A stretch of 64,000 nt of DNA, taken from positions 32,001 through 96,000 of the IMG/VR virus record IMGVR_UViG_3300045988_148533; one strand, given 5' to 3'. Numbering within the stretch: position 1 is the first letter of the stretch; every line of letters begins with the position of its first letter. The stretch is from a virus. A model generated the notes under the pieces. It was not told the origin of the DNA and made no database searches. It saw nothing but the letters and a program-made list of their open reading frames with translations. Made by a program: the position numbers and the translations under genes. Of this stretch, positions 1,614 through 64,000 are shown in pieces.

Positions 1614-1632
1614 GATAAAATTGCATTTTGAG

Positions 1633-1665
1633 CAAAAGTAGTCCCTAAATAGGACTTATCCAAAT
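1633..1665 (-). promoter_or_regulatory. Bacteroidota-type promoter for 729..1613 (-7 TACTTTTG, -33 TTTGG)
   Basis: The reverse complement of 1633-1640 is TACTTTTG (TAnnTTTG). A TTTGG lies about 21 nt upstream (reverse complement of 1661-1665). The ATG is at 1613. Confidence 0.5.
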
Positions 1666-1971
1666 TTGGATTTAACATAGGGAGCCAAAGGCTGCACCGA
1701 AGTGCAGCCACGCTCCAAACACTAACTTTGATGATAGAATTTTGAAAGAACTTATATCTGAAAATCAATAACGACATATTAACGCACATTAGGAAGCCTC
1801 ATCACTCCTAACAGGTAAAGGTCTCGTCAGAGACATCTCTATGGGCGAAGTCCACCGCCTAAGTCGGTGGCGAAGCCCCCTCTGAACCCGAGCGTTAGCG
1901 AGGATGGGTAATCTGGTTTACAGCGAGTTATGTTGTAACTGATTGTTTTACAGGCAGTTTTGTTTTCGGGA

Positions 1972-2024
1972 CTCTATTTATACTTCTATTTAACCTCTAT
2001 TTATACTTCTATTTAACCTCTATT
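1972..2024. repeat. AT-rich 23-bp tandem repeat (2.3 copies), candidate DNA-unwinding element of the origin
   Basis: CTCTATTTATACTTCTATTTAAC occurs at 1972-1994 and 1995-2017, with a partial third copy at 2018-2024. Each unit contains two TCTATTTA sub-repeats. Confidence 0.75.
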
Positions 2025-2068
2025 ATGCGCGTGCGCGCGAGGCAAACTGCTGTAATACGACGCTGCTA

Positions 2069-2100
2069 AAATATTTGCCCCCTTAAGGGGGCAAATATTT
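2069..2100. repeat. perfect 32-bp palindrome AAATATTTGCCCCCTT/AAGGGGGCAAATATTT
   Basis: Read directly. The arms 2069-2084 and 2085-2100 are exact reverse complements. It could form a hairpin/cruciform or act as an operator or bidirectional terminator. Confidence 0.85.
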
Positions 2101-2148
2101 CCATATTGTGTAGTTATGCAAATTTTATTGCACGACAAAAAAACCATT

Positions 2149-2229
2149 ACCGAGGGTGAAAAACCACACTACCGAGGGTGAAAAACCACACTACCGAGGG
2201 TGAAAAACCACACTACCGAGGGTGAAAGG
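2149..2229 (+). repeat. iterons: four direct copies of ACCGAGGGTGAAA spaced by exactly 22 bp
   Basis: ACCGAGGGTGAAAAACCACACT occurs at 2149-2170, 2171-2192 and 2193-2214, with a truncated fourth copy at 2215-2229. They lie immediately upstream of the rep-like gene. Confidence 0.85.
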
Positions 2230-2242
2230 TTAAAAATTAACA

Positions 2243-2274
2243 TTTGTGTATTTAAATATTTTTATTTTACTTTG
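2243..2274 (+). promoter_or_regulatory. possible promoter of the rep-like gene (TTTG, 20 nt, TTACTTTG)
   Basis: TTTG sits at 2243-2246 and an imperfect -7 box TTACTTTG at 2267-2274. The ATG is at 2297 and the iterons abut the promoter, the layout typical of autoregulated rep genes. Confidence 0.4.
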
Positions 2275-2296
2275 CAAAAATTTAAATATTATCATC

Positions 2297-3046
2297 ATGA
2301 ATAATAAGGAAAAGAAGGTGGCTGTTGCCACTAAAGAATCAATTGGTGACATTGTTGATTACACTGTAAGGCAGAAGCGGTGCTGGGCCTTAATCGTAAG
2401 AGAGGTGAATAAATTTCTACCTAAGAATTTCTGGGAAATATGGCAGGAAGGGGACTTGGAAACAATTGAAAAGCTGCTACCGCTGAATAAATTTCATGAA
2501 TTTGAAATGGAAATAAAAGCCTCAGAAATATCCACAAGAAGTTCTATTGTTCCGACACTCGAAAAGCTACATAATACCGTTGTAAAGATTAGAGACAGAA
2601 AAGACTTGGAAGTCTTTAGCATTATTCATTCCTATGGCGTTGTAAACAACAGGTATTATATTCGCATAACTCCTCGTGTCATCATGTGGATTATAGGTGT
2701 AAGTAGGAGAAGACTTTTCACAGCCTTTCATTTGGAATCCTTTCTAAGGCTTTCCACAACATCCGCCATGAATCTATACCTGTATATAAGCGCAAACTAC
2801 AATAAAACTGAAGCTTCTCAGAAGGGAACATGGTCGGATACACTGGAAAATGTAAAAAAAGAAATGGGTATCACAAAAGATATAGATAATTACCGTTTTA
2901 TAAATGACTATCTCAAGCCTGCTGCTGCCGAATTAATCCTAAAGAATACCCACCTGAAAGTCAGGTATGAAGCACAAAAGGAAGAAGTTCCTGCCATGAA
3001 TAGACGTAAGGCATGGGACAGGATATTATTTATGATTGAAAAATAG
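2297..3046 (+). CDS. plasmid-type replication initiator (Rep_3/RepB-like winged-helix protein)
   Basis: The segment FTAFHLESFLRLSTTSAMNLYLYISANY...GTWSDTLENVKKEMGITKDIDNYRFINDYLKPAAAELI follows the Rep_3 pattern (F..f.l.....L.s.ya..LY..l......l.eLr..lg....Y..f.df...vl.pa..El). The gene sits directly after the iterons. I chose the ATG at 2297 (MNNKEKK), not the GTG at 2246. Confidence 0.6.
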   Translation: MNNKEKKVAVATKESIGDIVDYTVRQKRCWALIVREVNKFLPKNFWEIWQEGDLETIEKLLPLNKFHEFEMEIKASEISTRSSIVPTLEKLHNTVVKIRDRKDLEVFSIIHSYGVVNNRYYIRITPRVIMWIIGVSRRRLFTAFHLESFLRLSTTSAMNLYLYISANYNKTEASQKGTWSDTLENVKKEMGITKDIDNYRFINDYLKPAAAELILKNTHLKVRYEAQKEEVPAMNRRKAWDRILFMIEK

Positions 3047-19509: not shown

Positions 19510-19989
19510 CTATTTTCTGGTTATTTCAAACTGTATCTTAATAATTACCTGTCCACCTGTTCCCTGCCTGCTCTCCATCACTGAGTAGGAATTTATGCTG
19601 ACGGAGGCATTAAATTTTTCAGGAATGACCTTTTCCAGTCTCCTGGCCATCCTGTCAGCCTTGGCACTTGCCCTGCCGTATCCGGACTCGTACTTTATAT
19701 AGGTAAAATCCTCCGCTGTGTCAATATCGTAGGTGAGGAGGGCATGGCTCTGGAAGGAGTCGTTCACGCGGCTCAGTGACACACGTGTGTCAGCACCGCT
19801 GAGATTCAGGTGGAGGGCTGGAAACAGCTTCTCCACGTGTGAGGCTATCTCCACAGCGTCCTCTGTGGCACGCTGCTGAAGCAGCATACAGGCTCTCATT
19901 TCCCGTATCCTAATTTCCATGTCCTCATTTCTGTCGTTAAGTACCTTTGTCAGGCTTTCTCTTGTACTGCTGTTAATTTCTCTTTTCAT
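19510..19989 (-). CDS. hypothetical protein (start at internal ATG, MKREINSS)
   Basis: The promoter box at 20017-20024 lies within the longer ORF. The ATG at 19989 sits 27 nt downstream of the box. Confidence 0.6.
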   Translation of the reverse strand: MKREINSSTRESLTKVLNDRNEDMEIRIREMRACMLLQQRATEDAVEIASHVEKLFPALHLNLSGADTRVSLSRVNDSFQSHALLTYDIDTAEDFTYIKYESGYGRASAKADRMARRLEKVIPEKFNASVSINSYSVMESRQGTGGQVIIKIQFEITRK

Positions 19990-20016
19990 GGCTCGTTTTG
20001 TTATTGATTTACGGTG

Positions 20017-20066
20017 CAAATATAGTCCGATTAATGATATCAACCAAGAAAAATCTTGAAAATTTC
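20017..20066 (-). promoter_or_regulatory. conserved phage promoter
   Basis: The reverse complement of 20017-20024 is TATATTTG. AACCAAGAAAAATCTTGAAAATTTC occupies 20042-20066 after a 20-nt spacer. Confidence 0.7.
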
Positions 20067-20377
20067 AATAATTTCTTGACATCGTCAAAATAAAAAGTTT
20101 CGTTTTGACGAGCCGAGTTTCGTTTTCCGTTTTTCGGGATGGTAACTCTTCCGTTACTTTGCCCTCTCCTCGGCAGTGAACACAGGCGTTCCACGACTCC
20201 GAAACTCTCCGTCTAACCCCCTCAAGAGCGCGTATCACTGCACCGTCAACAAAGTTAGGGGACGATTCTCCGAGTTTTCCGTTCCCAAAACTCTGTACCC
20301 CTGCGTCCATGTGGACAAATTGCGAATTCGTCCAATGGGTGAGTCCGTTTTTCGTCTCTCCATGCCCCTGTACCCTG

Positions 20378-21006
20378 TTCTCCACGTGGAGAATCATACC
20401 CTCCACGCCTGCTTCTCCACACTCTCCATGGTATAACGAAAAGTTATCGTGGAGAGACAAAATTAGGCGTGGAGAAGGCTGTTTTCGGCAATTTTGCGAT
20501 TTCTCCAAAACGGACCCACAGTCACCCTGCGCTTCGGTTGCCCTTAGGGGAAGTAGCGACCGTTTTCGCAAAGTCTCCAGCCATAACATTTTCTTATAGC
20601 TTGGACAACTTTTACACCTATGGACAGCGAAAATAGGAGAAAGTTTCGTTCCGTGACATTTACCCCTGCTGCATGGAGAAACGAACAGTTTCTCCACACC
20701 CATCCTCCATAACTTATAATCCGTAAGTTTTGATGTATGCTTGACTTACAATTTATAACTAAATGAGCCTATGAACTTACAATCTATAAGTTTGTACAGC
20801 GGAAACGAGTTACTATTTGTTACATCGCTGGTTATTAGGGAAAGTTCCTCTCCTCGCTGATATAGTCAGCCTGTCGGTCAAATAAGCGAAAAGGGCCGAG
20901 AACCGATGTAGTTCTCAGCCCACGGCCATGAAATTAACTATACGGATTATAAACGTCTCCACAGGCCCGACACGTACCCTGTGGAGGTATGAGTTGACGA
21001 GTGGAG
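20378..21006. repeat. dispersed array of at least ten CTCCAC/GTGGAG hexamers (five as TTCTCCAC), some forming palindromes or hairpins
   Basis: Exact copies lie at 20380-85, 20386-91, 20401-06, 20415-20, 20449-54, 20469-74, 20692-97, 20957-62, 20981-86 and 21001-06. A 16-bp palindrome TTCTCCACGTGGAGAA sits at 20378-20393. Hairpins lie at 20674-20697 and 20957-20986. Confidence 0.8.
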
Positions 21007-21442
21007 GGAAAGGGTTAGGAGAAGGAGCATATCACTGAAAAACTGACCCCTCTAAAATAATTTTACCGACCCCTCCTGACTCTCCAAAATAATCTTACTA
21101 ACCGCTCTAAACTATCTAAAAACCCCTTTTTCCATGTCCCACTCTTAACACTCAAACCAGCCCATTTCCCTGCTCCCCTCCAAACCATCTACCGCCTCCT
21201 AAGCCCATTTCCTTTCTTTCCATTACCTCCATATATACCCTCAGTGAAGAGTACTGATAGGCAATGGTAGAAGGATGGAGTGGATGGATAGGGTGTGGAT
21301 TCGGGGTAATGGATTAGGGGTCAGAGAAGTAGACTATGATGGAGAACCGACCTGTTCGGTCGGTTCACTATCGGAAAGGGCTCTCTGAAAGGCGTTTATC
21401 AACAATTTCCAGTCAGGAAGGAACGGTTCGCAGTCGAAACTT

Positions 21443-22069
21443 CTAATCCCCCTCCGAAAACCTTATCGAAAACTCACTCACAAGCACTGGGTCTGCTGCT
21501 GCAAGTCTCCTAAACAGACGCTTCGCTCTGTGGCACAGACGATGTGCCTCCCGTTCCTCCATACCGCACATCGCTCCCACCTCATCATACGGCATCTCGT
21601 ACACGTAGTGCAGGCGCAGAACCTTTGCCAGCTCCGCAGGCATCTCATCCAGCACAGCGGATATCCTCCTGCTGTTCTCATTCCTCTCTGCCTCCTCCTC
21701 AGGCGTAACCCCGTCGGGGTCGGGCAGCTGGAACTCCTGCTCATCGTCAGGGTCCCCGACGGGTGCGTCAATGCTTGTAAGGGTCAGCCGCTTCTTCCTT
21801 ACGTAGTCTATGGCGCAGTTGCGTCCTATCCTCACGAGCCATGCGCTGAGCTGATATGTAGGGGTATAGGTGTCGAGCCTGTCAAAGGCCTTTGTGAATG
21901 TCTCCGAAACTATGTCCTCTATTGCAAAGGGGTCAGGCACTCTCTTATATACGTGCCACATCACCATGTTCTTGTATTTCCTGTATATCTTCTGGTAGGC
22001 ACTCTGGTCTCCGCAGAGTGCCCTCTGCACGTAGTAGAAGTCGGTGCGCTTGTTGCTCTCCTGTTTCAT
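21443..22069 (-). CDS. RNA polymerase sigma factor, sigma-70 family (ECF/group 4-like, regions 2 and 4)
   Basis: Region 2 is YQKIYRKYKNMVMWHVYKRV...EDIVSETFTKAFDRLDTY......SAWLVRIGRNCAIDYVRKK. Region 4 is LDEMPAELAKVLRLHYVYEMPYDEVGAMCGMEEREAHRLCHRAKRLFR. Confidence 0.85.
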   Translation of the reverse strand: MKQESNKRTDFYYVQRALCGDQSAYQKIYRKYKNMVMWHVYKRVPDPFAIEDIVSETFTKAFDRLDTYTPTYQLSAWLVRIGRNCAIDYVRKKRLTLTSIDAPVGDPDDEQEFQLPDPDGVTPEEEAERNENSRRISAVLDEMPAELAKVLRLHYVYEMPYDEVGAMCGMEEREAHRLCHRAKRLFRRLAAADPVLVSEFSIRFSEGD

Positions 22070-22092: not shown

Positions 22093-22695
22093 TTATTCAC
22101 TCAACTGCCTGTGCGGATTGCGGTCACGGCTTATCACGTTGCTAAGGGTGCTCACCGCCAGCACCTCAGCCATGTCCGGCTCCTTTCTGTCGGCACTGTC
22201 ATCCCTGTACTTCTCCCACTCAGCATCCTCCTCACAGGGGTACAGGCTGTAACGCGCGATGTAGGCCGACTGGAACAGCTTGCGCAGTCGTCTCCTCTCA
22301 CGCTGGTAGTTATCCCTGTGCCATTCCCACAGATTGTTCAACTCAATATACTCAGCCTCCGTCATGGGGGCCTCAATTATATTGTAGTTGGCATCAGCGG
22401 TGCGGTATATCTTCACCTCATTCAAGTAGCGGGCATTGGCTCCATACAGGCTCGTCCACAGCTGCAAGAACAGCTTTACGACGGTGCTCCTGACGCGCCA
22501 GCTCCGCAGCCGCTTTTCATCGTCAAACATCTCCTCAACGGTTATGCCGTAACGGCTGCACAGGCTCTCAAGCATTCTCTGTGCATTGACCTGCTCACCG
22601 CCCACCCCTCTCAGGGCGAGCTCCCTTAGCTTTGTCAGCTTCACCCTTACTGACTCGGGTATCTCAACAGTGTTAATTTCCATGGCCTTAATCAT
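22093..22695 (-). CDS. hypothetical protein (N-terminal DUF2786-like helix pair?)
   Basis: 200-aa ORF. KLRELALRGVGGEQVNAQRMLESLCSRYGI loosely resembles the DUF2786 pattern. Confidence 0.55.
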   Translation of the reverse strand: MIKAMEINTVEIPESVRVKLTKLRELALRGVGGEQVNAQRMLESLCSRYGITVEEMFDDEKRLRSWRVRSTVVKLFLQLWTSLYGANARYLNEVKIYRTADANYNIIEAPMTEAEYIELNNLWEWHRDNYQRERRRLRKLFQSAYIARYSLYPCEEDAEWEKYRDDSADRKEPDMAEVLAVSTLSNVISRDRNPHRQLSE

Positions 22696-48105: not shown

Positions 48106-50127
48106 TTACATTAACGCAAATATCAGCATTCGTGTTGTCATATCAGCACGAATTATGTTCACACCTTTCTTGCTGTCGTTGGACAGTGAACCATTAATTA
48201 GAATAATGTTGCTCTTAGCCTTTTTCACGAACTCCTGAAGCCTGTCATAATCCCCTCCAAATATCAGGACTTCTATGAACTCATAGTTGCTTTCAAGCGT
48301 CATCTTGCAGAATGTCTTAGGGGCTGTTCTACGACCACCCTTTGTCGTCTTAACCTCAACATCAGCCACATAACCACCCACAACAACCATTCCTTCTCCA
48401 GCCTTGACTTTCCGAGAGGTATCATTGCACTGCTCCACCGTCACATAGGAATACTCATCTGGGAAGCTACCTCTGTTATTCTCATACAGCCTATCATACC
48501 TGAAGAACGCGAACCCAGAAAGCTGCTTCTGCATAAGTCGCCACCACCACCCATCCTCACGATGCACGTATGCACCATTGAGGAGAGGGTCACTGTCATC
48601 AATCTTAATCCTGTTCTTCTCAAAATACCTTCGCAGCAGAGACACCCTTTCCCGTACATCGGTAATGTTCTCTATGCTGTCAAACGCACCGCTCAGAATG
48701 AGGTTCTTAATTACTCGGCTGTTCACTGCCGTACCCTTCCAGTTATGGCGACTGACAAAGTCCTCAATTGACCAGTACTGCCCATTCTCATCTCTCTCCT
48801 TGAGTATCTGGTCAGCAGCCTTGTCGGCTACCTGTTTAACACCCATAATTGACCAATATAAAGACTGTGTCTTAAAGTCTATCACAACATTCTTAGTAGA
48901 GATGTTAATATCCACAGGTTTCACTTCACACACGCCTGTCTTATTAATCTCAGCAATATAGCGTGGATAGTCATCATCCGTAGCATACTTAAAGGCCACA
49001 CTCCAGTACTCAATAGGATAATGAACTTTCAGCCACTGAGATATATACCCTGTAATTGCATAGGCAGCTGCGTGACTCCGATTAAATAGGTAGAGGGATG
49101 CTTTATCAATAGCTTCCCACACACTCTCAGCATAATCATGGCTGACGCCAAAATGCTCCATATAATATGGGGTGAACCTCTCATGATACTGATGCAGTGC
49201 CTCATATTTCTTCTTCACCATCGCCTTACGCACATCATCAGCCTCAACCAATGACAAACCTCCTAAAACCTTACACAACTCCATAACAGACTCCTGATAT
49301 ATCACAAGGCCAAATGTCTTCTCAAGCACTTTTTCAGCACCCACCCAATATTTCACCTTACTCGGGTCTGCCTTACGAATAATATAATCCTCATGGAATC
49401 CATTCTCCATTGCTCCAGGACGATATAGGGAAATGGCAGCTATCAGGTCTTCAATGTTGCGTGGCTGCATCTGCTTACAGTATCCAGTCAACCCTCTACT
49501 GCCAAAGTGGAAATTATCCTCATTCCAGCCGTTGCAGAAATACCTGTACACCTCTCTATCATCAAGAGGTGTGCTGTATATATCCACGTCCACACCCTCA
49601 TTCTCCTTTATTAAGGTAATCATCTCCTGAAACTTATCCAGCTGCTTCACACCCAGAATATCCTGTTTCAAGAATCCAGCACTGTCCATCTCACCACCTT
49701 CCCATTCGCTGACATATTCCTCACCCTGTTTTCTGATTGGAACCCAGTGGAACATATCGTGTTCCTTAGGAAAAATCATCGTAGCACAGGCATGAATGGA
49801 CTGTGCCTTGGGGGCAGGCATAAGCAGCATCACCTCATTCACTATATCAGGGTGCTCTGTCACGAATTTCTTAACATTCTCATCCGCACAGGCTATCTTG
49901 AACAGGTCTTCCGGCTTACGGTCACTAACATCAAATACTTTCATCATCTCATTCACCGTCTGGAATTCCAACCCGTATATTCTGGACATGTCCTTAATGG
50001 CCGCTCGCAGTTGCAGTGCGCTGTACGTACCCACGGAACATACTCTACTCCACCCGTATCGTTCTTCCATATATTTCTTCACCCGAGGTCTATCAACCGA
50101 GGGGAAGTCAACATCGATTTCACTTCG
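48106..50127 (-). CDS. dnaE: DNA polymerase III alpha subunit (DnaE-type), downstream exon: catalytic Asp motif, palm, fingers and C-terminal OB region
   Basis: The track ORF (GTG at 50082) reads MKKYMEERYGWSRVCSVGTYSALQLRAAIKDMSRIYG..., then LYRPGAME and HAAAYA. My upstream translation of the same frame gives GRSEIDVDFPSVDRPRV, which is the PDxDxDF-type catalytic motif. No start codon lies between it and the TAA at 50137-50139. The 5' boundary (about 50125-50127) is inferred. Confidence 0.75.
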   Translation of the reverse strand, partial: RSEIDVDFPSVDRPRVKKYMEERYGWSRVCSVGTYSALQLRAAIKDMSRIYGLEFQTVNEMMKVFDVSDRKPEDLFKIACADENVKKFVTEHPDIVNEVMLLMPAPKAQSIHACATMIFPKEHDMFHWVPIRKQGEEYVSEWEGGEMDSAGFLKQDILGVKQLDKFQEMITLIKENEGVDVDIYSTPLDDREVYRYFCNGWNEDNFHFGSRGLTGYCKQMQPRNIEDLIAAISLYRPGAMENGFHEDYIIRKADPSKVKYWVGAEKVLEKTFGLVIYQESVMELCKVLGGLSLVEADDVRKAMVKKKYEALHQYHERFTPYYMEHFGVSHDYAESVWEAIDKASLYLFNRSHAAAYAITGYISQWLKVHYPIEYWSVAFKYATDDDYPRYIAEINKTGVCEVKPVDINISTKNVVIDFKTQSLYWSIMGVKQVADKAADQILKERDENGQYWSIEDFVSRHNWKGTAVNSRVIKNLILSGAFDSIENITDVRERVSLLRRYFEKNRIKIDDSDPLLNGAYVHREDGWWWRLMQKQLSGFAFFRYDRLYENNRGSFPDEYSYVTVEQCNDTSRKVKAGEGMVVVGGYVADVEVKTTKGGRRTAPKTFCKMTLESNYEFIEVLIFGGDYDRLQEFVKKAKSNIILINGSLSNDSKKGVNIIRADMTTRMLIFALM

Positions 50128-51220
50128 CCCCCACCATTACTGATGGGGGCATAACATCAGGCAGGGATACCGGAACGAATCCCTGCCTGAACTCCTTTTC
50201 AATTTTTACTATTTTCGACATACTTAAAAAATTTACCTATCTGCCCTGAATATAACCCCATTTCCTTCATACCATTAGAATCATACCCCTGTTTCCAAAG
50301 CTGAACCATGCGGTATGCACCATAATATTTGGAGTCACACTCATTTAATATATAACGTTCTATCTCCTTTTGCGTAGACAATTTTCTGTCCGAAATTAAA
50401 TATCTATATTTACGAATTTTCTTCAACCCATACATTCCAAGAAAATCCGCTTCACGCATATAACTGTAAAAATTACATTCCCCTGTCCATAAATCATACA
50501 CCCAACATGATTTCGCCTTCACATTTTTACCGCCCTTGCTTTTACCATTCTCCCTTCTCTTAATGGAAAGATTTTTCTTTTGTTCATCAGTCCATCTACG
50601 ACCATAATTAGGATTGGTCTCACCCTCAAAACGCGGAGGAAGCCCACCTCCCACCATCATATTTAAAACATCTGGTCGAGAAATAAAGGCCTCATCCACA
50701 ATCCTCGCTTCGGACTCTAAAGCATCCTTAATGGAATGAAAATAACAAATAATCCTCTTTTTAAAATTCAAGTACCCATATTGTAGCAATGCTTTTCTAA
50801 ATTTCGTTTCCTTCTCCTTATGACGTTTATATAAAACACCGCTTTTCCTTATTAAACACCCATTCCCTATATAAGTGTCAAATTCCGGGTGTAACCCCTT
50901 ATAAACCCTGACACCAATATAAATATCATTAGTTATTACACACTTGGTTTCGTACAAATAAACCACGCGACGACCACCCAAATCAACGGGTATTTCAGAA
51001 TAATTAATACACTTGCTTAAATAGTCCATAATTCAATAAATTTAAGCAAACACTAAAGTCAAAATCAATAAGCAAGCAATTCGTCATTGACTTTAAAATC
51101 CTTTGCCTTGGCAATTATCTTATTTCCACCCCTGAACAAAACAAGTTCTTTATTTTCATCAAATTCCAAGATTCTGCCATTATCAAGAGTAATTTTAACA
51201 ATATTCTGCTTACGTACATA
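50128..51220 (-). mobile_element. intervening sequence in dnaE (probable group I intron, boundaries +/- about 5 nt) carrying a GIY-YIG homing endonuclease gene
   Basis: The exon 1 frame reads ...LLFERFLNKGRVG and then diverges from DnaE. The exon 2 frame resumes at (G)RSEIDVDF. Candidate splice points follow a U (51221 or 51225) and a G (50128 or 50126). Two strong hairpins lie in the 3' part at 50163-50194 and 50128-50151. Confidence 0.55.
50199..51029 (-). CDS. GIY-YIG homing endonuclease (I-TevI-like)
   Basis: VVYLYETKCVITNDIYIGV is the GIY-x10-YIG element, with conserved Arg and Glu downstream (FRKAL, ESEARIV). The C-terminal part is a basic, NUMOD-like linker region. The gene is A+T-rich. 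Confidence 0.8.
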   Translation of the reverse strand: MDYLSKCINYSEIPVDLGGRRVVYLYETKCVITNDIYIGVRVYKGLHPEFDTYIGNGCLIRKSGVLYKRHKEKETKFRKALLQYGYLNFKKRIICYFHSIKDALESEARIVDEAFISRPDVLNMMVGGGLPPRFEGETNPNYGRRWTDEQKKNLSIKRRENGKSKGGKNVKAKSCWVYDLWTGECNFYSYMREADFLGMYGLKKIRKYRYLISDRKLSTQKEIERYILNECDSKYYGAYRMVQLWKQGYDSNGMKEMGLYSGQIGKFFKYVENSKN

Positions 51221-52675
51221 ACCAACTCGGCCCTTATTCAAGAACCTTTCAAACAGCAGCCCATACTCCAGAGGGTCAAGTTTTGTAATCCCTATAAGAT
51301 AGGAAATAAGACATCCTCCAGCACTGCCCCTACTTATACCTGTCAATATGCCGTTTTCATGACACCAATTGACAATGTCTCGAGTTATTAGGAAGTAGTC
51401 AATTACATTACCGAACTTAATCACGTCTATTTCCCTCTCTAATCGCTCCAATACGACATCTTCACCCCACCTGTCAACCAACTCAGGATGAGCAGCCAGA
51501 CCTTCCTCTATGAGGCCTAAAAACATCTCCTCATTGGTTGTGTACTTAGCAGCCTCATCAGGCTTCATCTCGTACTTAGGAAGATGCCTGTTGGCTGTGT
51601 CTATCGTAAAGTCACACCCATCCGCAATGTCATTCAACAGCTGCATTGACTCGAGAAACAACTCTGCACCCACCTCTTCTTCAGAGAATAACTGCAAGAA
51701 TTCCTCATACACAGCCTCATTTGACTTAAAATACTGATTATCACTTGCATACCCCATTCTGCCTGCAATACGATGCAGCCTATCCGGAATATCCGCATAT
51801 TCAGCATCTATGTACCATGCATCACTAAACACCAGAGGCACAAGATTAGTGTCATAGAAGAATTTCTTAAGGTTCTTCAAGTACCACTCATCATGCCTCT
51901 CATCACTGTAAGCACACGTGTCAAGCTGATAGAAAGCTGTATCAATATTCGCCTTACGAAATTCTTCGTAATCAAGTGTCTTAGGGTCAAGAATAACAGT
52001 AATATCATCATTGTTTCCTACAATTTCCCTAAATCTGTCAAGTGCCACCCACCCTGAATTGACACAGTTAATCTCAGTGTTGATTGTTAAAAGGGTCTGC
52101 CACCCTTCAAAATTTCGGGCATAGACTTTCACTACAAAACGCACATCACTGTCAATGTCATACACGGTACACCCCATCCCGATGATGGGTTTAATGCCGA
52201 ACTTCTGACATTCCATCTGAAATTTTAAAGCCCCTGCAAGAGAATTAACTTCACAGACACCCAGATTCCTTACCCCAAGAAACTTAGCCTTGCGACACCA
52301 ATCCGTGTAAGTACCGCTTCCTGAAAGAATCTCATACTGTCCATGAACCCCCAAAAAAGTGTCCGTAGGAAGAGGAAAGGTACTTTCACCGAGGTATTTC
52401 AGCCTGTTCAACTTGACATCATTCTCCTGCCCCCTGTCCAGCCAGTACCACACCCCTCCGAACCTATACACGTACCTGTCGGCAAGTGTTTCATTATCCT
52501 CATGTGGTTCAGTGTTGTATGGCTTGCCTATAAAGCAAAAGCCGTCATCAAACAGTGAACCGTCATCGGCAGGCACATACAGCTCATACGTCCTGTCCCC
52601 TATTTCCACAACGGCATCAGACACCTCTGTGTAGGCTATACCATTTTCCTTGAGATATGCTATCAGTTCTTCCAT
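51221..52675 (-). CDS. dnaE: DNA polymerase III alpha subunit (DnaE-type), upstream exon: PHP domain and start of palm
   Basis: FLGVHGQYEILSGSGTYTDWCRKAKFLGVRNLGVCEVNSLAGALKF is the PHP domain. ISRGSAGGCLISYLIGITKLDPLEYGLLFERFLN is collinear with the bacterial DnaE RGSAAGSLVAY..GIT..DP....LLFERFLNPER. The ORF reads through to the stop at 51065, but homology ends near 51221. Confidence 0.8.
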
Positions 52676-60859: not shown

Positions 60860-63800
60860 TCATACTGTATCAATTTTAATCTGTACATTACCCTCTCTGA
60901 GGTAATTAATAGCCATATAGGATGATGATAACGTATCATCGTGGCCGCTTATACTCTCCAATGTTCCCTTGTCACTTCTAAAGGCAACGGAATTAAATTC
61001 ACCGAAAAGCATATTTATCTTGTCCCTGTCATCATGATGATACGGTACTTTTATCACACCTCTCTCAAAAAGAGCAGCCAATGACGGCCACCCACTCCGC
61101 AAATCCTTCTTATTGTTAGTGGTTGTAAATCTTATAATATTCTTGACACCACCGTCTATCGCCAGACTACCCAGCACCGACTGGAAGTTATTGTTCTCCA
61201 CCACAACAGCATTCGGCCTGAATATCGTATTCAAAGTGATAATCCTCTGCACCTGTTCATCATACGGCATACCCTTTGCCCTGTATAGATGCAGAAGATA
61301 ATAAATACCCATCCTATCCCTGCCCCACACTGTGAAACAAGTATAGTCAGCACCGACAGCACCGCTTATTCCAAAATCCACTCCAACAGCTACTGCATCC
61401 AGTTTGTAGGGGAAAGACTCTTGATTGTTCACAAGGTGAACATTCTCCATTCCAATTGTGCTTCGCTTTAGAATGTCCCACGGAAATATTGTGCTATCGT
61501 CCGATATCGGCACCACCAGATACTCCCTCGAAAATACCAAGGAGCCTGCGGATTCCCTCTCAGCCATCAACTTCTCGAACGTAAATCTATCCGGAGCCAA
61601 CAACCTACCATCAGGAAAAACAGCAGGGTATTCAAATACCTTGAACTTACCGTCTTTCTTCAAGGAATCATAAAGGTCAGTCGATTGGTACGGGGTATTA
61701 TGAGAAATGATGCCATTTGAAAGAAATGTATGAGTTTTACCCATTGTAAAATCAACCGTTATACTCCTACCCTTTCCAATTGACTTCACCCTCAAAAAAG
61801 TGTACCCTCTTTCGGCATTAGCTTTCAATTCAAATGCTTCCTCACTTACGACTCCAGATGCAGCCACCCATTTTCCAACATTTTGAATATCCCTTAACTT
61901 ATGAATACTCACTTTCTTTTTACCCCACATCTTCAACCTCTCCAAACCAAAAGTTTTTCTATCAGAAATCGTAAGGGGTTTTTGCTTTCTAACAGCCTTA
62001 ATCAATCTACTCTGATACGGTACACGCAACAAGGAAAGACTATTACGGTATTTAAAAGTGTGCCATTTATCACCCTTTCCGGAATTAGGAAATCCAATTT
62101 CCTTCATAAAAAGGTTAATCATCTCTTCACTGTCAATCCTAAGCAGATACCCCATTCTGTTGGACTTAACCCTTTCAGAACTCTGACATTTCTTAACCTT
62201 AACTGAAGACAGTATTCCAAGATTGAGTAGTGCAAACTGTATCTGACGTATTAACTCCATGCTGACAGAAAAACAGCTTATATTTCCATCAATTGAAAAA
62301 CATCCATCACCATCAAAATAACCCGACAAAAACTTTGTAATTTCTCTCTTTCCAGCATGAAATATCTTTTCAGGAATCACCTTAGTATGGCTATACCACC
62401 CCAATTCATATCCCAAAGAAGCCCATAATTCACGCTTATCAGCTTTATAATATCTTAAATGAATTCCATCATAAACACCGTTCACCTCCCTCCATCCTCT
62501 ATCAATTAAATACTGCCTAATACCAGCATTTCTCTTTGCAATAGTTATTCTATCACTGGATAAATGCCCATCGGCAATACTTAATCCTATTTGATACAAT
62601 TCATCATCACTTATATTAAGAGACTCTCCCCATATATTTGCACCCACTTTCATAGCCACAAAATCACCGATACAAATATCTTCAGCCTTCTTCCATTTAT
62701 AACAGCCGTCATCACCACATACCATAATAGGATGAATCATGCTCGTTTCCAGCGTAAACCCTTTTTCCAACTGAATCAACCTTGTCTCCGTTTCACCATT
62801 TATATAATATTTTTCAGCCAGCTCTAATTCCTGACCATTATAAATGAATTTATTGAAAGAATAATACCCCTTAGGACTTGTGAGTGGTACAGGGCAAAGT
62901 TCTCCTATCATACGAATACCCCTATCCGTAAGTACAAATGTATCCGGTGAAACACAACCGTCCACAATGTTATACCCATAAGGTTCCACAATAGGAGAGA
63001 TGGAACCTTTGAAAATATTTTCCAGCTTCTGCCTCTGTTCCAAGGAGTAGATACTACTCTCATCAGGGAGGTCATCACTAACAGCTGCTCCAACGTGCAG
63101 ACCTCGAATAAATCCTCCTGCTCCTCTGAGGTGTAGCTTAGTACCATTCTCACCCTCAACTGACTTCTCTGCCAGAACCGCCTTGCCGTTAGGGTTTATG
63201 ACATGACATAGAATGTCATTAGCCTTTATCTCCTCAACTATCTTATCCACGTGTTCCTTTCCAAGAGTTTCCGTATTGGTTATAATACACGTTTCCTGTC
63301 GATTCTTATTATCAGGGGTATCAGGCTTCATATAGTTTGGTCTGCGATAGCTGTACAGCCTCCACAGCGGGAAGGCGAAGCAGAACTCATAGGAGTTGTG
63401 AACCACTGTACCGTCCTCCAACTGAAATAGATGGTCTCCATCCGTCATGAACCCATAATAGGATTCCTTTCCAATAGGCTCTATAACTATATCCATCTTC
63501 TCCAGTACAGGCGTATCAGGAGAAAACACTCTGTACCCCTTGAACCTCTTACGCCTGAGGGGTGTCAATGAATAATACCTCTCAGCCTCAATCTCGACAT
63601 ATTCCTTCTTCTTAGTGTCAAACAGGCATAGGATGTGTGGTGCGTTTACAGCATACGCCATACCTCCTTCCTGCTCTATACGGTACATATCACTGAATCC
63701 TATGTGCCTCGTCAATACCTTTCTTGGGGTATAGTCTATGCCCATCACCTCCATCCCAGGATATATATCTTCAACATTCTTGACAGTAAAGTCTGCCATC

Positions 63801-64000
63801 AATATTCTCGTGCCTCGAATAAAGCACTTTCCATGAGAACGAGCAGCAAGATAGGCACTGTTCTGATACAGCTGAATCAAATTACCCCACTCAAGATTCC
63901 TCCACCCCTGCCTGAAGTTATTCAAAACTGTCGTCTTGAAATAATTATAGGAATGAATTTTCAGGGTATCATCCATGCTCTCACCGAGCTGCTCGATGTA
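60860..64000 (-). CDS. terL: terminase large subunit precursor containing two inteins; N-terminus may lie beyond the window
   Basis: The exteins are ...AARSHGK|SYEFCFAF... (Walker A GKS restored after splicing), ...YNIVDG|TPYQSTDLY..., and the C-terminal nuclease region VGVDFGISGAVGADYTCFTVWG. The reading frame stays open upstream of the ATG at 63976 to the window edge (YIEQLGES-MDD). Confidence 0.85.
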   Translation of the reverse strand, partial: YIEQLGESMDDTLKIHSYNYFKTTVLNNFRQGWRNLEWGNLIQLYQNSAYLAARSHGKCFIRGTRILMADFTVKNVEDIYPGMEVMGIDYTPRKVLTRHIGFSDMYRIEQEGGMAYAVNAPHILCLFDTKKKEYVEIEAERYYSLTPLRRKRFKGYRVFSPDTPVLEKMDIVIEPIGKESYYGFMTDGDHLFQLEDGTVVHNSYEFCFAFPLWRLYSYRRPNYMKPDTPDNKNRQETCIITNTETLGKEHVDKIVEEIKANDILCHVINPNGKAVLAEKSVEGENGTKLHLRGAGGFIRGLHVGAAVSDDLPDESSIYSLEQRQKLENIFKGSISPIVEPYGYNIVDGCVSPDTFVLTDRGIRMIGELCPVPLTSPKGYYSFNKFIYNGQELELAEKYYINGETETRLIQLEKGFTLETSMIHPIMVCGDDGCYKWKKAEDICIGDFVAMKVGANIWGESLNISDDELYQIGLSIADGHLSSDRITIAKRNAGIRQYLIDRGWREVNGVYDGIHLRYYKADKRELWASLGYELGWYSHTKVIPEKIFHAGKREITKFLSGYFDGDGCFSIDGNISCFSVSMELIRQIQFALLNLGILSSVKVKKCQSSERVKSNRMGYLLRIDSEEMINLFMKEIGFPNSGKGDKWHTFKYRNSLSLLRVPYQSRLIKAVRKQKPLTISDRKTFGLERLKMWGKKKVSIHKLRDIQNVGKWVAASGVVSEEAFELKANAERGYTFLRVKSIGKGRSITVDFTMGKTHTFLSNGIISHNTPYQSTDLYDSLKKDGKFKVFEYPAVFPDGRLLAPDRFTFEKLMAERESAGSLVFSREYLVVPISDDSTIFPWDILKRSTIGMENVHLVNNQESFPYKLDAVAVGVDFGISGAVGADYTCFTVWGRDRMGIYYLLHLYRAKGMPYDEQVQRIITLNTIFRPNAVVVENNNFQSVLGSLAIDGGVKNIIRFTTTNNKKDLRSGWPSLAALFERGVIKVPYHHDDRDKINMLFGEFNSVAFRSDKGTLESISGHDDTLSSSYMAINYLREGNVQIKIDTV
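61697..62956 (-). mobile_element. intein 2 of terL (420 aa) with LAGLIDADG homing endonuclease domain
   Basis: It starts CVSPDTFVLTDRG and ends FLSNGIISHN, followed by Thr. The LAGLIDADG motifs are LYQIGLSIADGHL and KFLSGYFDGDGCF. The region is A+T-rich. Confidence 0.85.
63395..63826 (-). mobile_element. intein 1 of terL (144-aa mini-intein) inserted in the Walker A P-loop
   Basis: It starts CFIRGTRILMADF directly after GK and ends YYGFMTDGDHLFQLEDGTVVHN, followed by Ser. There is no endonuclease domain. Confidence 0.8.

What the first reader, a model, noticed from the sequence alone, without database searches (positions are those of the whole stretch)
20065..21010. About 1 kb without a credible gene but packed with TTCTCCAC/GTGGAGAA boxes, palindromes and hairpins
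This region lies between the promoter at 20017-20066 and position 21010. The only long ORF here (20065..20703, minus) translates to a Cys/Gly/Ser-rich, repeat-driven sequence that does not look like a protein.

The hexamer CTCCAC or its complement occurs at least ten times. For a hexamer in about 630 bp on both strands, fewer than one copy is expected by chance. Five copies are the 8-mer TTCTCCAC.

The boxes form several structures:
- a 16-bp perfect palindrome TTCTCCACGTGGAGAA (20378-20393);
- a hairpin TGGAGAAAC-gaaca-GTTTCTCCA (20674-20696);
- a hairpin CTCCACAGG...CCTGTGGAG (20957-20986).

TTCTCCACA differs from the DnaA box TTATCCACA at two positions. There are also two AGTTTCGTTTT direct repeats (around 20093-20127) and three ACTTA(C/T)AAT...TATAA(C/G)T-like repeats (20710-20795).

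Candidate functions are a lytic origin, a packaging (pac) region, or an operator array for a phage DNA-binding protein.
Basis: seen in the sequence. Interest (0 to 1): 0.62.

Follow-up and report, generated by a model that had tools for sequence, protein, structure and literature searches.

The report
Gene-free, hairpin-rich phage regulatory spacer
The stretch is real non-coding DNA in the largest gene-free gap of a ~103-kb gut-type phage: a patchwork of a terminator, four evenly spaced protein-binding-like palindromes and a lineage-specific cluster of hairpins, most likely a regulatory spacer rather than a replication origin or packaging site.

Summary
TCTCCA occurs 12 times and CTCCAC 10 times where about 0.8 is expected. 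The 212-aa ORF is not a gene: it shows no third-position bias, has frameshifts or deletions in 7 of 9 close relatives, and has no distant homologues.

Seventeen related spacers from three phage lineages show a modular 1.4-kb non-coding gap after an ECF-type sigma gene. All lineages that reach each part share these parts:
- a roughly 70-nt hairpin element with five covarying pairs;
- a hypervariable C-rich then G-rich segment;
- a minus-strand intrinsic terminator (20893-20921);
- four TTAyAAwTTrTAA dyads spaced 31-33 bp (20711-20824);
- a roughly 45-60-nt core (20507-20570).

The TCTCCAC box cluster is found in one lineage only. It partly arose by a ~75-nt tandem duplication, evolves at about half the neutral rate, and is partly deleted in relatives.

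My best reading (about 0.4) is a regulatory spacer between two early operons, with the boxes serving as hairpin stems rather than iterons. A replication origin is not excluded. A more classical iteron plus AT-rich candidate lies at 2137-2297. A pac site is unsupported.

The parts
20017..20066 (-). Early promoter cassette of the next operon (TTCAAGATTTTTCTTGG, then 21 nt, then TATATTTG), driving gene 19510-19989.
   Evidence: It is one of seven near-identical minus-strand cassettes in the genome. The TAnnTTTG box lies at 20017-20024.
20065..20703 (-). Spurious 212-aa ORF, not a gene.
   Evidence: Codon score is -0.09, against 0.09-0.58 for neighbouring genes. Variable sites by codon position are 54/53/43, against 10/3/50 in the sigma gene. 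Non-synonymous changes far outnumber synonymous ones. Indels or deletions fall inside it in 7 of 9 relatives. Cluster members are 134-236 aa long. Only 4 fragmentary hits were found among 1.84 billion representatives.
20082..20127 (.). Hairpin TCGTCAAAATAAAA/TTTCGTTTTGACGA and two AGTTTCGTTTT direct repeats just upstream of the promoter cassette.
   Evidence: I10, D17. At the same place L041 carries a clean hairpin plus T-run, AAAAATGAAACTCGAGTTTCATTTTT.
20100..20290 (.). Dispensable block, absent from L032 and from L035/L036/L045.
   Evidence: Alignments.
20293..20442 (.). Two diverged ~75-nt tandem units, each starting with CTGTACCC followed by a palindrome (GTCCATGTGGAC at 20304-20315; TTCTCCACGTGGAGAA at 20378-20393).
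   Evidence: D6: 20293-20318 against 20368-20393, 73% identity. The 16-bp palindrome is invariant in the window's lineage.
20401..20474 (.). Nested long hairpin built from boxes: CTCCACGCCT/AGGCGTGGAG outside, CTCTCCA/TGGAGAG and ATAAC/GTTAT inside.
   Evidence: (I25, I23). In L032 two C-to-T changes leave G-T pairs in the plus sense. The hairpin is absent from the sister lineage, which has an AT-rich palindrome there.
20339..20519 (.). Domain closed by a 13-bp long-range helix (20339-20351 with 20507-20519).
   Evidence: I11. The helix appears in the minimum-energy fold. The pairing is kept through a change on both sides (G-C to T-A) in L041.
20507..20570 (-). Conserved core: ...CGAAAACGGTCGCTACTTCCCCTAAGGGCAACCGAAGCGCAGGGTGACTGTGGGTCCGTTTT.
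   Evidence: It is present in every full-length spacer, both of the window's lineage and of the sister lineage. It is unique in the genome. No match was found in viral, metagenome or bacterial genome collections.
20628..20642 (-). 15-mer TTTCTCCTATTTTCG, identical in the window's lineage and the sister lineage, lying downstream of a strong hairpin.
   Evidence: It is deleted in L046, L049 and L050.
20674..20696 (.). Hairpin TGGAGAAAC-N5-GTTTCTCCA.
   Evidence: In L032 it shows a compensatory A-T to G-C change and a loop that reads as the reverse complement. The sister lineage has an unrelated perfect 11-bp hairpin at the equivalent place.
20711..20824 (.). Array of four dyad sites (20711-20729, 20744-20760, 20774-20792, 20808-20824) with consensus TTAyAAwTTrTAA, centres 31-33 bp apart, about 70% A+T.
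   Evidence: ACTTA-N7-TAAGT occurs exactly twice in 103 kb (0.1 expected), both here, with a third copy one mismatch away. Four sites at 31-32 bp spacing are also present in L035 (3635-3747), and two are visible in L033 before its contig ends.
20829..20842 (-). Conserved TTCCCTAATAACCA block between the terminator and the dyads.
20893..20921 (-). Intrinsic terminator of the sigma operon: GGGCTGAGAAC...GTTCTCGGCCC followed by TTTTCG.
   Evidence: 12 pairs plus a T-run. It is conserved in the window's lineage and the sister lineage. L033 has the changed stem GCCCTGAG...CTCAGGGC followed by TTTT. Stem and loop read as the reverse complement in L032.
20957..20986 (.). Hairpin CTCCACAGG-N12-CCTGTGGAG.
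   Evidence: It is not kept in the sister lineage.
21013..21042 (-). Conserved block TTTTTCAGTGATATGCTCCTTCTCCTAACC ahead of the terminator.
   Evidence: It is conserved in all three lineages. Divergence over 20885-21045 is 0.02-0.03, against 0.05-0.18 at four-fold sites of the sigma gene.
21046..21321 (-). Hypervariable, compositionally skewed segment. In the sense of the flanking genes it reads C-rich for about 90 nt and then G-rich for about 200 nt, with 22-32-nt tandem units (TTTAGAG.GGTC...).
   Evidence: Divergence is 0.24-0.39 with many indels, above the synonymous-site rate. The composition, but not the sequence, is kept in all three lineages.
21315..21395 (-). Conserved ~70-nt structured element 45-115 nt after the sigma stop: an outer 7-bp stem, a GAU/AUC stem, and a 9-bp hairpin with loop GAACAG.
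   Evidence: The consensus fold has 19 pairs, 5 of which change on both sides. 93% of cells are paired, against 27-50% when partners are slid, and 0 of 500 shuffles reach the observed covariation score. There is a single copy in the genome, and none in distant relatives.
21443..22069 (-). ECF-type sigma factor gene, upstream neighbour.
   Evidence: Pfam Sigma70_r2 and Sigma70_r4_2; PHROG 1740.

Best explanation
Positions 20065-21010 are not coding. They form the distal two-thirds of a 1.4-kb non-coding spacer that separates two early transcription units of a ~103-kb phage of Bacteroidota type.

The spacer is modular:

1. The operon that ends with the ECF-type sigma gene runs on as a long untranslated tail. 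The tail holds a covarying ~70-nt hairpin element, a C-rich then G-rich hypervariable segment and a conserved C/U-rich block. It stops at an intrinsic terminator at 20893-20921 on the minus strand.

2. Next comes an A+T-rich array of four dyad sites (TTAyAAwTTrTAA) set three helical turns apart. I read this as a landing pad for a dimeric DNA-binding protein that binds cooperatively on one face of the helix, that is, an operator-type control region.

3. The TCTCCAC-box block is a lineage-specific set of inverted repeats, partly made by local duplication around a conserved core. The boxes act as the arms of hairpins (structure) rather than as sequence-specific iterons. Their likely effect is on whatever transcription crosses the spacer: pausing, termination or processing that insulates the next early promoter at about 20020-20060.

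Shown: the stretch is non-coding; it is modular; the terminator and hairpins are conserved; the dyads keep their consensus and phasing; the boxes are lineage-specific and dispensable.

Inferred: that a protein binds the dyads; that the block is transcribed; and what the hairpins do.
For: Non-coding:
- Codon-position and synonymous/non-synonymous tests with the sigma gene as control.
- Frameshifts and deletions in relatives.
- Six-frame comparison with the sister lineage hits all frames and contains stops.
- No protein family found.

Terminator and upstream element:
- Terminator found, conserved, with a changed stem in L033.
- Upstream element supported by covariation.

Dyads:
- The exact dyad occurs only here in 103 kb.
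- The same consensus and 31-33-bp phasing appear in the window and in L035.
- The half-site AACTTA is shared between sites within one genome, as expected for recognition by one protein.

Boxes as stems:
- Every minus-oriented box pairs with a plus-oriented one.
- Box spacing is irregular.
- Folding z-scores are -4.4 and -4.7.
- Compensatory changes occur in the 20674 hairpin and in the 20339/20519 helix.
- The sister lineage has a different perfect hairpin at the same place.

Lineage-specific and dispensable:
-.
- Divergence is about half the four-fold-site rate.
- There is a ~75-nt tandem duplication (D6).

Context: seven conserved early promoters are all on the minus strand, and the spacer lies between two of them.
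Against: - No recognisable promoter overlaps the dyads. TAnnTTTG matches in the spacer are at chance level and are not conserved. An ECF-like TGTAAC-N17-CGCT is a single occurrence.
- No DNA-binding protein could be assigned to the dyads.
- The structure conservation index of the box block across lineages is low, 0-0.3.
- G-U-type changes do not favour one strand, so RNA-level function is unproven.
- Terminator-like sites are no more frequent than in shuffles.
Confidence: 0.4

Rival explanations
1. Replication origin. The four dyads are initiator-binding repeats next to A+T-rich DNA. Flanking hairpins and DnaA-box-like TCTCCAC words assist. Transcription from the sigma operon into the G-rich segment could open or prime the origin.
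For: - This is the largest non-coding gap in the genome.
- It lies at the end of the replication and nucleotide-metabolism module.
- It has four phased dyad repeats in A+T-rich DNA.
- The compositional skew, G-rich in the RNA sense, is kept in three lineages.
- There are four sites within one mismatch of the DnaA box, against about 0.75 expected.
Against: - The boxes are missing from the sister lineage.
- Two of the four dyads are deleted in L046, L049 and L050.
- Other blocks come and go between relatives.
- No exact DnaA box is present. All boxes carry C at position 3 of TTWTNCACA.
- GC skew is monotonic and uninformative.
- A more classical candidate, four 22-bp direct iterons plus an A+T-rich run at a divergent-transcription point, lies at 2137-2297.
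- No initiator gene is adjacent.
Confidence: 0.22
2. One or more phage non-coding RNAs. The box block (about 20100-20700), and/or the tail of the sigma transcript, is a stable structured RNA with a function of its own, such as a decoy, sponge or antisense regulator.
For: - A covarying element lies at 21315-21395.
- Folding z-scores are strong.
- A long-range helix is kept through a double change.
- Hairpin plus T-run ends are oriented on the minus strand.
- Divergence is below the synonymous rate.
Against: - No Rfam family matches, even at E up to 10.
- No promoter was found.
- The structure conservation index across lineages is low.
- Large parts are deleted or replaced in relatives.
- The strand is undecided.
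Confidence: 0.2
3. Largely functionless, fast-turnover spacer. Only the terminator and a few short sites matter. The boxes and palindromes are by-products of hairpin-mediated duplication and inversion in a recombination-prone early region.
For: - Presence/absence polymorphism of blocks, a replaced segment in L053, and hairpins that read as the reverse complement in L032.
- A ~75-nt duplication.
- The box block diverges at the neutral rate in the closest pair (0.045 against 0.048 for L030).
- Contigs break at scattered points here, as expected for strain heterogeneity.
Against: - In most pairs, divergence of the blocks is about half the four-fold-site rate.
- The 16-bp palindrome is invariant.
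- The core and the dyads are conserved in the sister lineage.
Confidence: 0.15
4. Packaging (pac/cos) site or physical genome end.
For: Repeats and hairpins are present, and several contigs of relatives end inside the spacer.
Against: - Contig ends are scattered over several hundred bases, not at one position.
- The terminase gene is about 40 kb away.
- The record's end repeat is a 77-bp assembly overlap located elsewhere.
Confidence: 0.02
5. A real protein-coding gene (ORF 20065-20703).
For: The frame is open for 227 codons and is intact in the window, L030 and L055.
Against: (see the parts list).
Confidence: 0.01

Closest known systems
Phage operator arrays (lambda OR/OL type: several dyad-symmetric sites bound cooperatively by a dimeric repressor). 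Comparison from general knowledge.
   Same: Several 13-19-bp dyad sites share one half-site. They are closely and regularly spaced, lie in an intergenic control region between transcription units, and are unique to that locus.
   Different: There are four sites at 31-33-bp spacing rather than three at about 24 bp. No overlapping promoter and no repressor gene were identified. There is only one array in the genome.
Lambda-type origin (four dyad-symmetric iterons plus an A+T-rich region), and the P4 ori/crr arrangement of an octamer repeated in both orientations. Comparison from general knowledge.
   Same: Four dyad repeats lie in A+T-rich DNA. An 8-mer (TTCTCCAC) is repeated in both orientations nearby.
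   Different: - The array is not inside or beside an initiator gene.
- The boxes are irregularly spaced and absent from the sister lineage.
- Blocks are deleted in relatives.
- Origin activity is untested.
Rho-independent (intrinsic) terminator
   Same: A G+C-rich 12-pair stem is followed by a T-run at 20893-20921 on the strand of the upstream operon. The stem is kept in relatives.
   Different: Nothing unusual, except that stem and loop read as the reverse complement in one relative.
Promoter/stem-loop cassettes of T4-type phages that bound hyperplastic regions. Comparison recalled from the literature, not checked here.
   Same: Seven near-identical early promoter cassettes are present. Similarity to relatives breaks at the cassette, and the gene behind it differs between relatives.
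   Different: The sequences are unrelated and the host phylum is different. The spacer itself is not such a cassette.
DnaA-box clusters (oriC, datA, plasmid origins)
   Same: TTCTCCACA is an 8-of-9 match to TTATCCACA, and the words occur in both orientations with irregular spacing.
   Different: - There is no exact box.
- The shared deviation (C at position 3) falls outside the TTWTNCACA consensus.
- Five of the boxes end in CACG rather than CACA.
- The cluster is not conserved in the sister lineage.

Membership tests
Protein-coding gene | Substitutions concentrated at third codon positions, with synonymous changes outnumbering non-synonymous ones | tested here: not met
   Variable sites by codon position are 54/53/43, and non-synonymous changes outnumber synonymous ones 2-5 fold. 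The sigma gene control gives 10/3/50, with synonymous changes far in excess.
Protein-coding gene | Reading frame kept in relatives, and homologues exist | tested here: not met
   Indels or deletions fall in the frame in 7 of 9 relatives. Called products range from 124 to 236 aa. Only 4 fragments from close relatives were found among 1.84 billion representatives.
Iteron-type replication origin | Regularly phased repeats of one motif next to an A+T-rich unwinding region | tested here: inconclusive
   The dyads meet this: four sites 31-33 bp apart in about 70% A+T DNA. The TCTCCAC boxes do not, because their spacing is irregular.
Iteron-type replication origin | Conservation of the repeats, or co-variation with an initiator, in related genomes | tested here: inconclusive
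   The dyads are conserved in the lineages that reach them. The boxes are absent from the sister lineage, and two dyads are deleted in L046, L049 and L050. No initiator was identified.
Iteron-type replication origin | Initiation of DNA synthesis at the site | not testable with these tools
GC skew is monotonic.
DnaA-box cluster | Several matches to TTWTNCACA | tested here: not met
   There is no exact TTATCCACA. Four sites lie within one mismatch in 1.4 kb. All TCTCCAC boxes have C at the W position.
pac/cos site or genome terminus | A fixed end position, and proximity to terminase genes | tested here: not met
   Contig ends of relatives are scattered. The terminase gene lies at 60860-63976. 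No read-start data were available.
Operator array | Multiple dyad-symmetric sites with a shared half-site, conserved in relatives | tested here: met
   The consensus TTAyAAwTTrTAA is seen in three lineages.
Operator array | Overlap with a promoter, and a cognate DNA-binding protein | tested here: inconclusive
   No conserved TAnnTTTG box lies in the right place. A plus-strand TAAGTTT(T)G at 20724-20732 is conserved, but it has no -33 element and no downstream gene. Neighbouring small proteins give no Pfam hit.
Known structured RNA family (Rfam) | Match to a covariance model at the gathering score | tested here: not met
   No matches in the window at gathering score. Only chance-level matches with E above 0.7 in 19900-21600.
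Structured RNA (generic) | Base pairs kept through compensatory changes across lineages | tested here: inconclusive
   Met for the 21315-21395 element and for single helices. Not met for the box block as a whole, where the structure conservation index is 0-0.3.
Intrinsic terminator | G+C-rich stem followed by a T-run on the strand of the upstream operon, kept in relatives | tested here: met
   with a changed stem in L033.

The most novel reading that the evidence does not exclude
The whole 1.4-kb gap, or its two halves, may encode a previously undescribed modular non-coding RNA specific to this group of sigma-bearing gut phages. It would combine a conserved covarying ~70-nt element, a hypervariable G-rich domain and a box-hairpin domain closed by a long-range helix. 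It would act in trans (as a decoy or regulator), or as an R-loop-forming primer at an origin, rather than as passive spacer.
Probability: 0.2. Interest if true: 0.7.

Novelty: new member of a known kind. Interest (0 to 1): 0.35.

Why it matters
This is the largest non-coding stretch of an uncultured ~103-kb phage. The phage carries its own ECF-type sigma factor and a split Pol III-alpha-type polymerase.

The work yields several practical points:
- A gene caller's 212-aa 'hypothetical protein' here is spurious, which removes a false protein family.
- The comparative map shows which pieces are under constraint: the ~70-nt hairpin element, the terminator, the four phased dyads and the 45-60-nt core.
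- It also shows which pieces are lineage-specific and dispensable, namely the striking TCTCCAC boxes. This tells an experimenter where to aim footprinting, deletion and end-mapping.

If the dyads prove to be the switch between early transcription units, or an origin, they would be a handle on the regulation of a poorly known group of Bacteroidota phages.

Tried and rejected
- **Alternative genetic code or recoded stops.** Stops of all three kinds are spread over all six frames except the one ORF.
- **Decayed copy of the small genes that follow sigma in distant relatives.** No tblastn similarity was found, and those relatives have coding DNA and no comparable repeats there.
- **Similarity of the spacer to the rest of the genome.** None was found, with E at or above 0.1.
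- **Extra copies of the conserved motifs or of the dyad elsewhere in the genome.** None were found.
- **A second copy of the 70-nt element (a nut/put-like pair).** None was found in the genome or in distant relatives.
- **An ECF-type promoter class (TGTAAC-N16-18-CGY).** It is not enriched.
- **TTCTCCAC as a promoter element elsewhere.** All other copies are inside genes.
- **Bacteroidetes SOS-repressor motifs (GGA-N5-TCC, CTAA-N5-TTAG; PMC8565304).** They do not match the dyads.
- **Public collections.** No similar phage record was found. There were no hits to core or element patterns in viral, metagenome or bacterial genome contigs. The 16-bp palindrome alone hit 7 contigs that were not examined further.
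- **Terminator counts in relatives.** They do not exceed shuffles.
- **Literature searches.** They gave nothing specific.
Full report
**Setting.**
The window is bases 32001-96000 of a 103,303-bp virus record. The record's 77-bp end repeat is an assembly overlap.

Almost all genes lie on the minus strand. They include:
- a fused large terminase;
- a DnaE-type polymerase split over two ORFs;
- helicases;
- an NAD-dependent ligase;
- ribonucleotide reductase;
- a GroEL-like chaperonin.

The nearest cultured relatives of the polymerase are phages of Tenacibaculum, Cellulophaga, Chryseobacterium and Bacteroides. The closest records are from human faeces.

Seven near-identical minus-strand promoter cassettes (TTCAAGATTTTTCTTGG, then 21 nt, then TATATTTG) mark early units.

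The finding lies between an ECF-type sigma gene (21443-22069, minus) and the cassette at about 20020-20060. Together with the doubtful ORF, this is by far the largest gene-free gap in the genome.

- CTCCAC occurs 10 times, TCTCCA 12 times and TTCTCCAC 5 times. About 0.8, 0.8 and 0.1 copies are expected from the phage's own composition.
- Outside the spacer, every TTCTCCAC lies inside a minus-strand gene, where its complement reads GTGGAGAA.
- Both strands of 20280-20720 fold far better than shuffles (z = -4.4 and -4.7).
- One correction: TTCTCCACA is one mismatch, not two, from TTATCCACA.

**The ORF is not a gene.**
- Its codon score (-0.09) falls below all neighbouring genes.
- A word-indexed search found only three close copies, two of them truncated. 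Cluster members range from 134 to 236 aa.
- An exhaustive HMMER search of 1.84 billion representatives found only four fragments from close relatives.
- I collected 17 distinct versions of the spacer from public assemblies.
- Among the nine close relatives, variable sites fall 54/53/43 on codon positions 1/2/3, and non-synonymous changes exceed synonymous ones 2-5 fold. Seven of the nine carry indels or deletions inside the frame.
- The adjacent sigma gene, compared across the same nine relatives, gives 10/3/50 and a large synonymous excess.
- A six-frame comparison with the sister lineage matches in all frames and runs through stops.
- Recoded stop codons do not rescue any frame.

**Comparative anatomy.**
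Three lineages share the spacer:
- the window's lineage (sigma at least 90% identical);
- a sister lineage (sigma 71% identical: L035, L036, L041, L045);
- L033 (sigma 76% identical), whose contig ends after 540 nt.

Relatives with sigma about 42% identical have ordinary small genes there and none of these features.

Reading in the sense of the flanking genes, the spacer contains the following.

1. *A ~70-nt element, 45-115 nt after the sigma stop (21315-21395).*
   - It has an outer 7-bp stem, a short GAU/AUC stem and a 9-bp hairpin with invariant loop GAACAG.
   - Of its 19 pairs, 5 change on both sides.
   - 93% of cells are paired, against 27-50% when partners are slid.
   - 0 of 500 shuffles reach its covariation score.
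   - It diverges 5-8 times more slowly than four-fold sites of sigma.
   - It is single-copy.

2. *A segment that is C-rich for about 90 nt, then G-rich for about 200 nt.*
   - It is full of indels and 22-32-nt tandem units.
   - It diverges faster than synonymous sites, yet the composition is kept in all three lineages.

3. *A conserved C/U-rich block (21013-21042), a hairpin, and a clear intrinsic terminator at 20893-20921*.

4. *Four dyad sites at 20711-20824.*

5. *A strong hairpin at 20674-20696.*
   - It shows a compensatory change in L032.
   - In the sister lineage an unrelated perfect 11-bp hairpin stands at the same place.
   - It is followed by the 15-mer TTTCTCCTATTTTCG, identical in the window's lineage and the sister lineage.

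6. *A 45-60-nt core (20507-20570), present in every full-length spacer.*

7. *The box cluster (20340-20480).*

8. *A block (20100-20290) that is absent from L032 and from most of the sister lineage.*

**The boxes.**
- The cluster 20380-20475 exists only in the window's lineage. The sister lineage keeps one box (GTCTCCACG) and has an AT-rich palindrome instead.
- Part of the cluster is a diverged ~75-nt tandem duplication, each unit headed by a palindrome (D6).
- L046, L049 and L050 lack about 150 nt (about 20618-20770). That includes two dyads, the 20674 hairpin and the 15-mer. L053 has a replaced segment.
- Box spacing is irregular, and each minus-oriented box is the partner of a plus-oriented one.
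- The block diverges at roughly half the four-fold-site rate. In the closest pair it diverges at the same rate.
- A 13-bp long-range helix (20339-20351 with 20507-20519) is kept through a double change in L041.
- Across lineages, however, the structure conservation index of the block is only 0-0.3, and wobble-type changes do not single out a strand.

Together these points argue that the boxes are hairpin arms generated locally. They do not look like conserved sequence-specific iterons. The block is constrained only weakly.

**The dyads.**
- ACTTA-N7-TAAGT occurs exactly twice in 103 kb (0.1 expected). Both copies are here, with a third one mismatch away at the same 31-32-bp step.
- Aligned across lineages, the sites share the consensus TTAyAAwTTrTAA.
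- Four sites 31-33 bp apart are present in the window and in L035 (3635-3747). Two are visible in L033 before its contig ends.
- A shared half-site within a genome, dyad symmetry, three-turn phasing and uniqueness to one locus are what a cooperative array for a dimeric DNA-binding protein looks like.
- I could not find the protein or an overlapping promoter. TAnnTTTG matches are at chance level. A conserved plus-strand TAAGTTT(T)G at 20724-20732 has no -33 element and no gene behind it. An ECF-like TGTAAC-N17-CGCT is a single occurrence.
- The dyads do not match the Bacteroidetes SOS-repressor motifs (PMC8565304).

**Origin or pac?**
- GC skew is monotonic and uninformative.
- DnaA-box-like words are only mildly enriched, and none is exact.
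- Contigs of relatives that end inside the spacer do so at scattered positions, mostly next to the polymorphic junctions. That fits strain heterogeneity rather than a physical end.
- The terminase gene is about 40 kb away.
- A more classical origin-like site lies elsewhere in the window. It has four 22-bp direct iterons (2137-2224), about 70 nt of A+T-rich DNA and a 32-bp perfect palindrome, and it sits at a point of divergent transcription.
- An origin here therefore remains possible, with the dyads rather than the boxes as the initiator sites. It is not the favoured reading.

**Verdict.**
- The function is not established.
- I favour a modular regulatory spacer, at about 0.4. In this reading it comprises the tail and terminator of the sigma operon, an operator-type dyad array, and a lineage-specific hairpin block that acts through structure.
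- Rivals are an origin (about 0.2), a stand-alone non-coding RNA (about 0.2) and largely functionless turnover (about 0.15).
- Earlier first-reader notes on this genome describe the same features. None had been followed up.

Noticed in passing
window 1614-2297: A gene-free gap lies at a point of divergent transcription. It holds four 22-bp tandem iterons AAAAACCACACTACCGAGGGTG (2137-2224), about 70 nt of A+T-rich DNA, a perfect 32-bp palindrome (2069-2100), two copies of a 23-bp tandem repeat (1972-2017) and GCGCGTGCGCGCG. It has the textbook look of an iteron-type origin.
   Followed up: partly
window 21315-21395 (minus): A ~70-nt hairpin element sits just after the sigma stop codon, with five covarying pairs across three phage lineages. 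It is single-copy and matches no Rfam family. It is a candidate new cis-acting RNA motif.
   Followed up: yes
window 21046-21345: The composition is sharply skewed. About 200 nt are almost G-free on the plus strand, followed by about 100 nt that are almost C-free. The segment has many indels and 22-32-nt tandem units in relatives and diverges faster than synonymous sites, yet the skew is kept in all lineages. Possible roles, none tested, are a Rho-loading tract, a G-quadruplex or R-loop-prone tract, or a long imperfect hairpin.
   Followed up: partly
L032 versus window 20674-20696 and 20893-20921: In one relative, two hairpins (stem plus loop) read as the exact reverse complement of the window's version. 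These look like small inversions between the arms of inverted repeats.
   Followed up: partly
window 14926, 18718, 20060, 24285, 25198, 38468, 40006 (minus): There are seven near-identical early promoter cassettes. Similarity to relatives breaks at the 20060 cassette, and the gene behind it differs between relatives (159-aa against 122-aa product). The genomes are mosaic: gene 22093-22695 is 94-99% identical to the 'sister' lineage but 60-70% identical to the 'close' one.
   Followed up: partly
window 48106-52675 (minus): The Pol III-alpha (DnaE-type) polymerase is split inside its NTPase domain into two ORFs (51065-52675 and 48106-50082). A 276-aa ORF without any Pfam match lies between them (50199-51029).
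   Followed up: partly
window 60860-63976 (minus): This is an unusually long (1038-aa) large-terminase ORF. The terminase match covers only its C-terminal part, and other PHROG families match upstream of it.
   Followed up: no
L046 and L053 (spacer region): Stretches of these relatives' spacers are returned as runs of N (withheld), so the structure of those two variants is known only in part.
   Followed up: no
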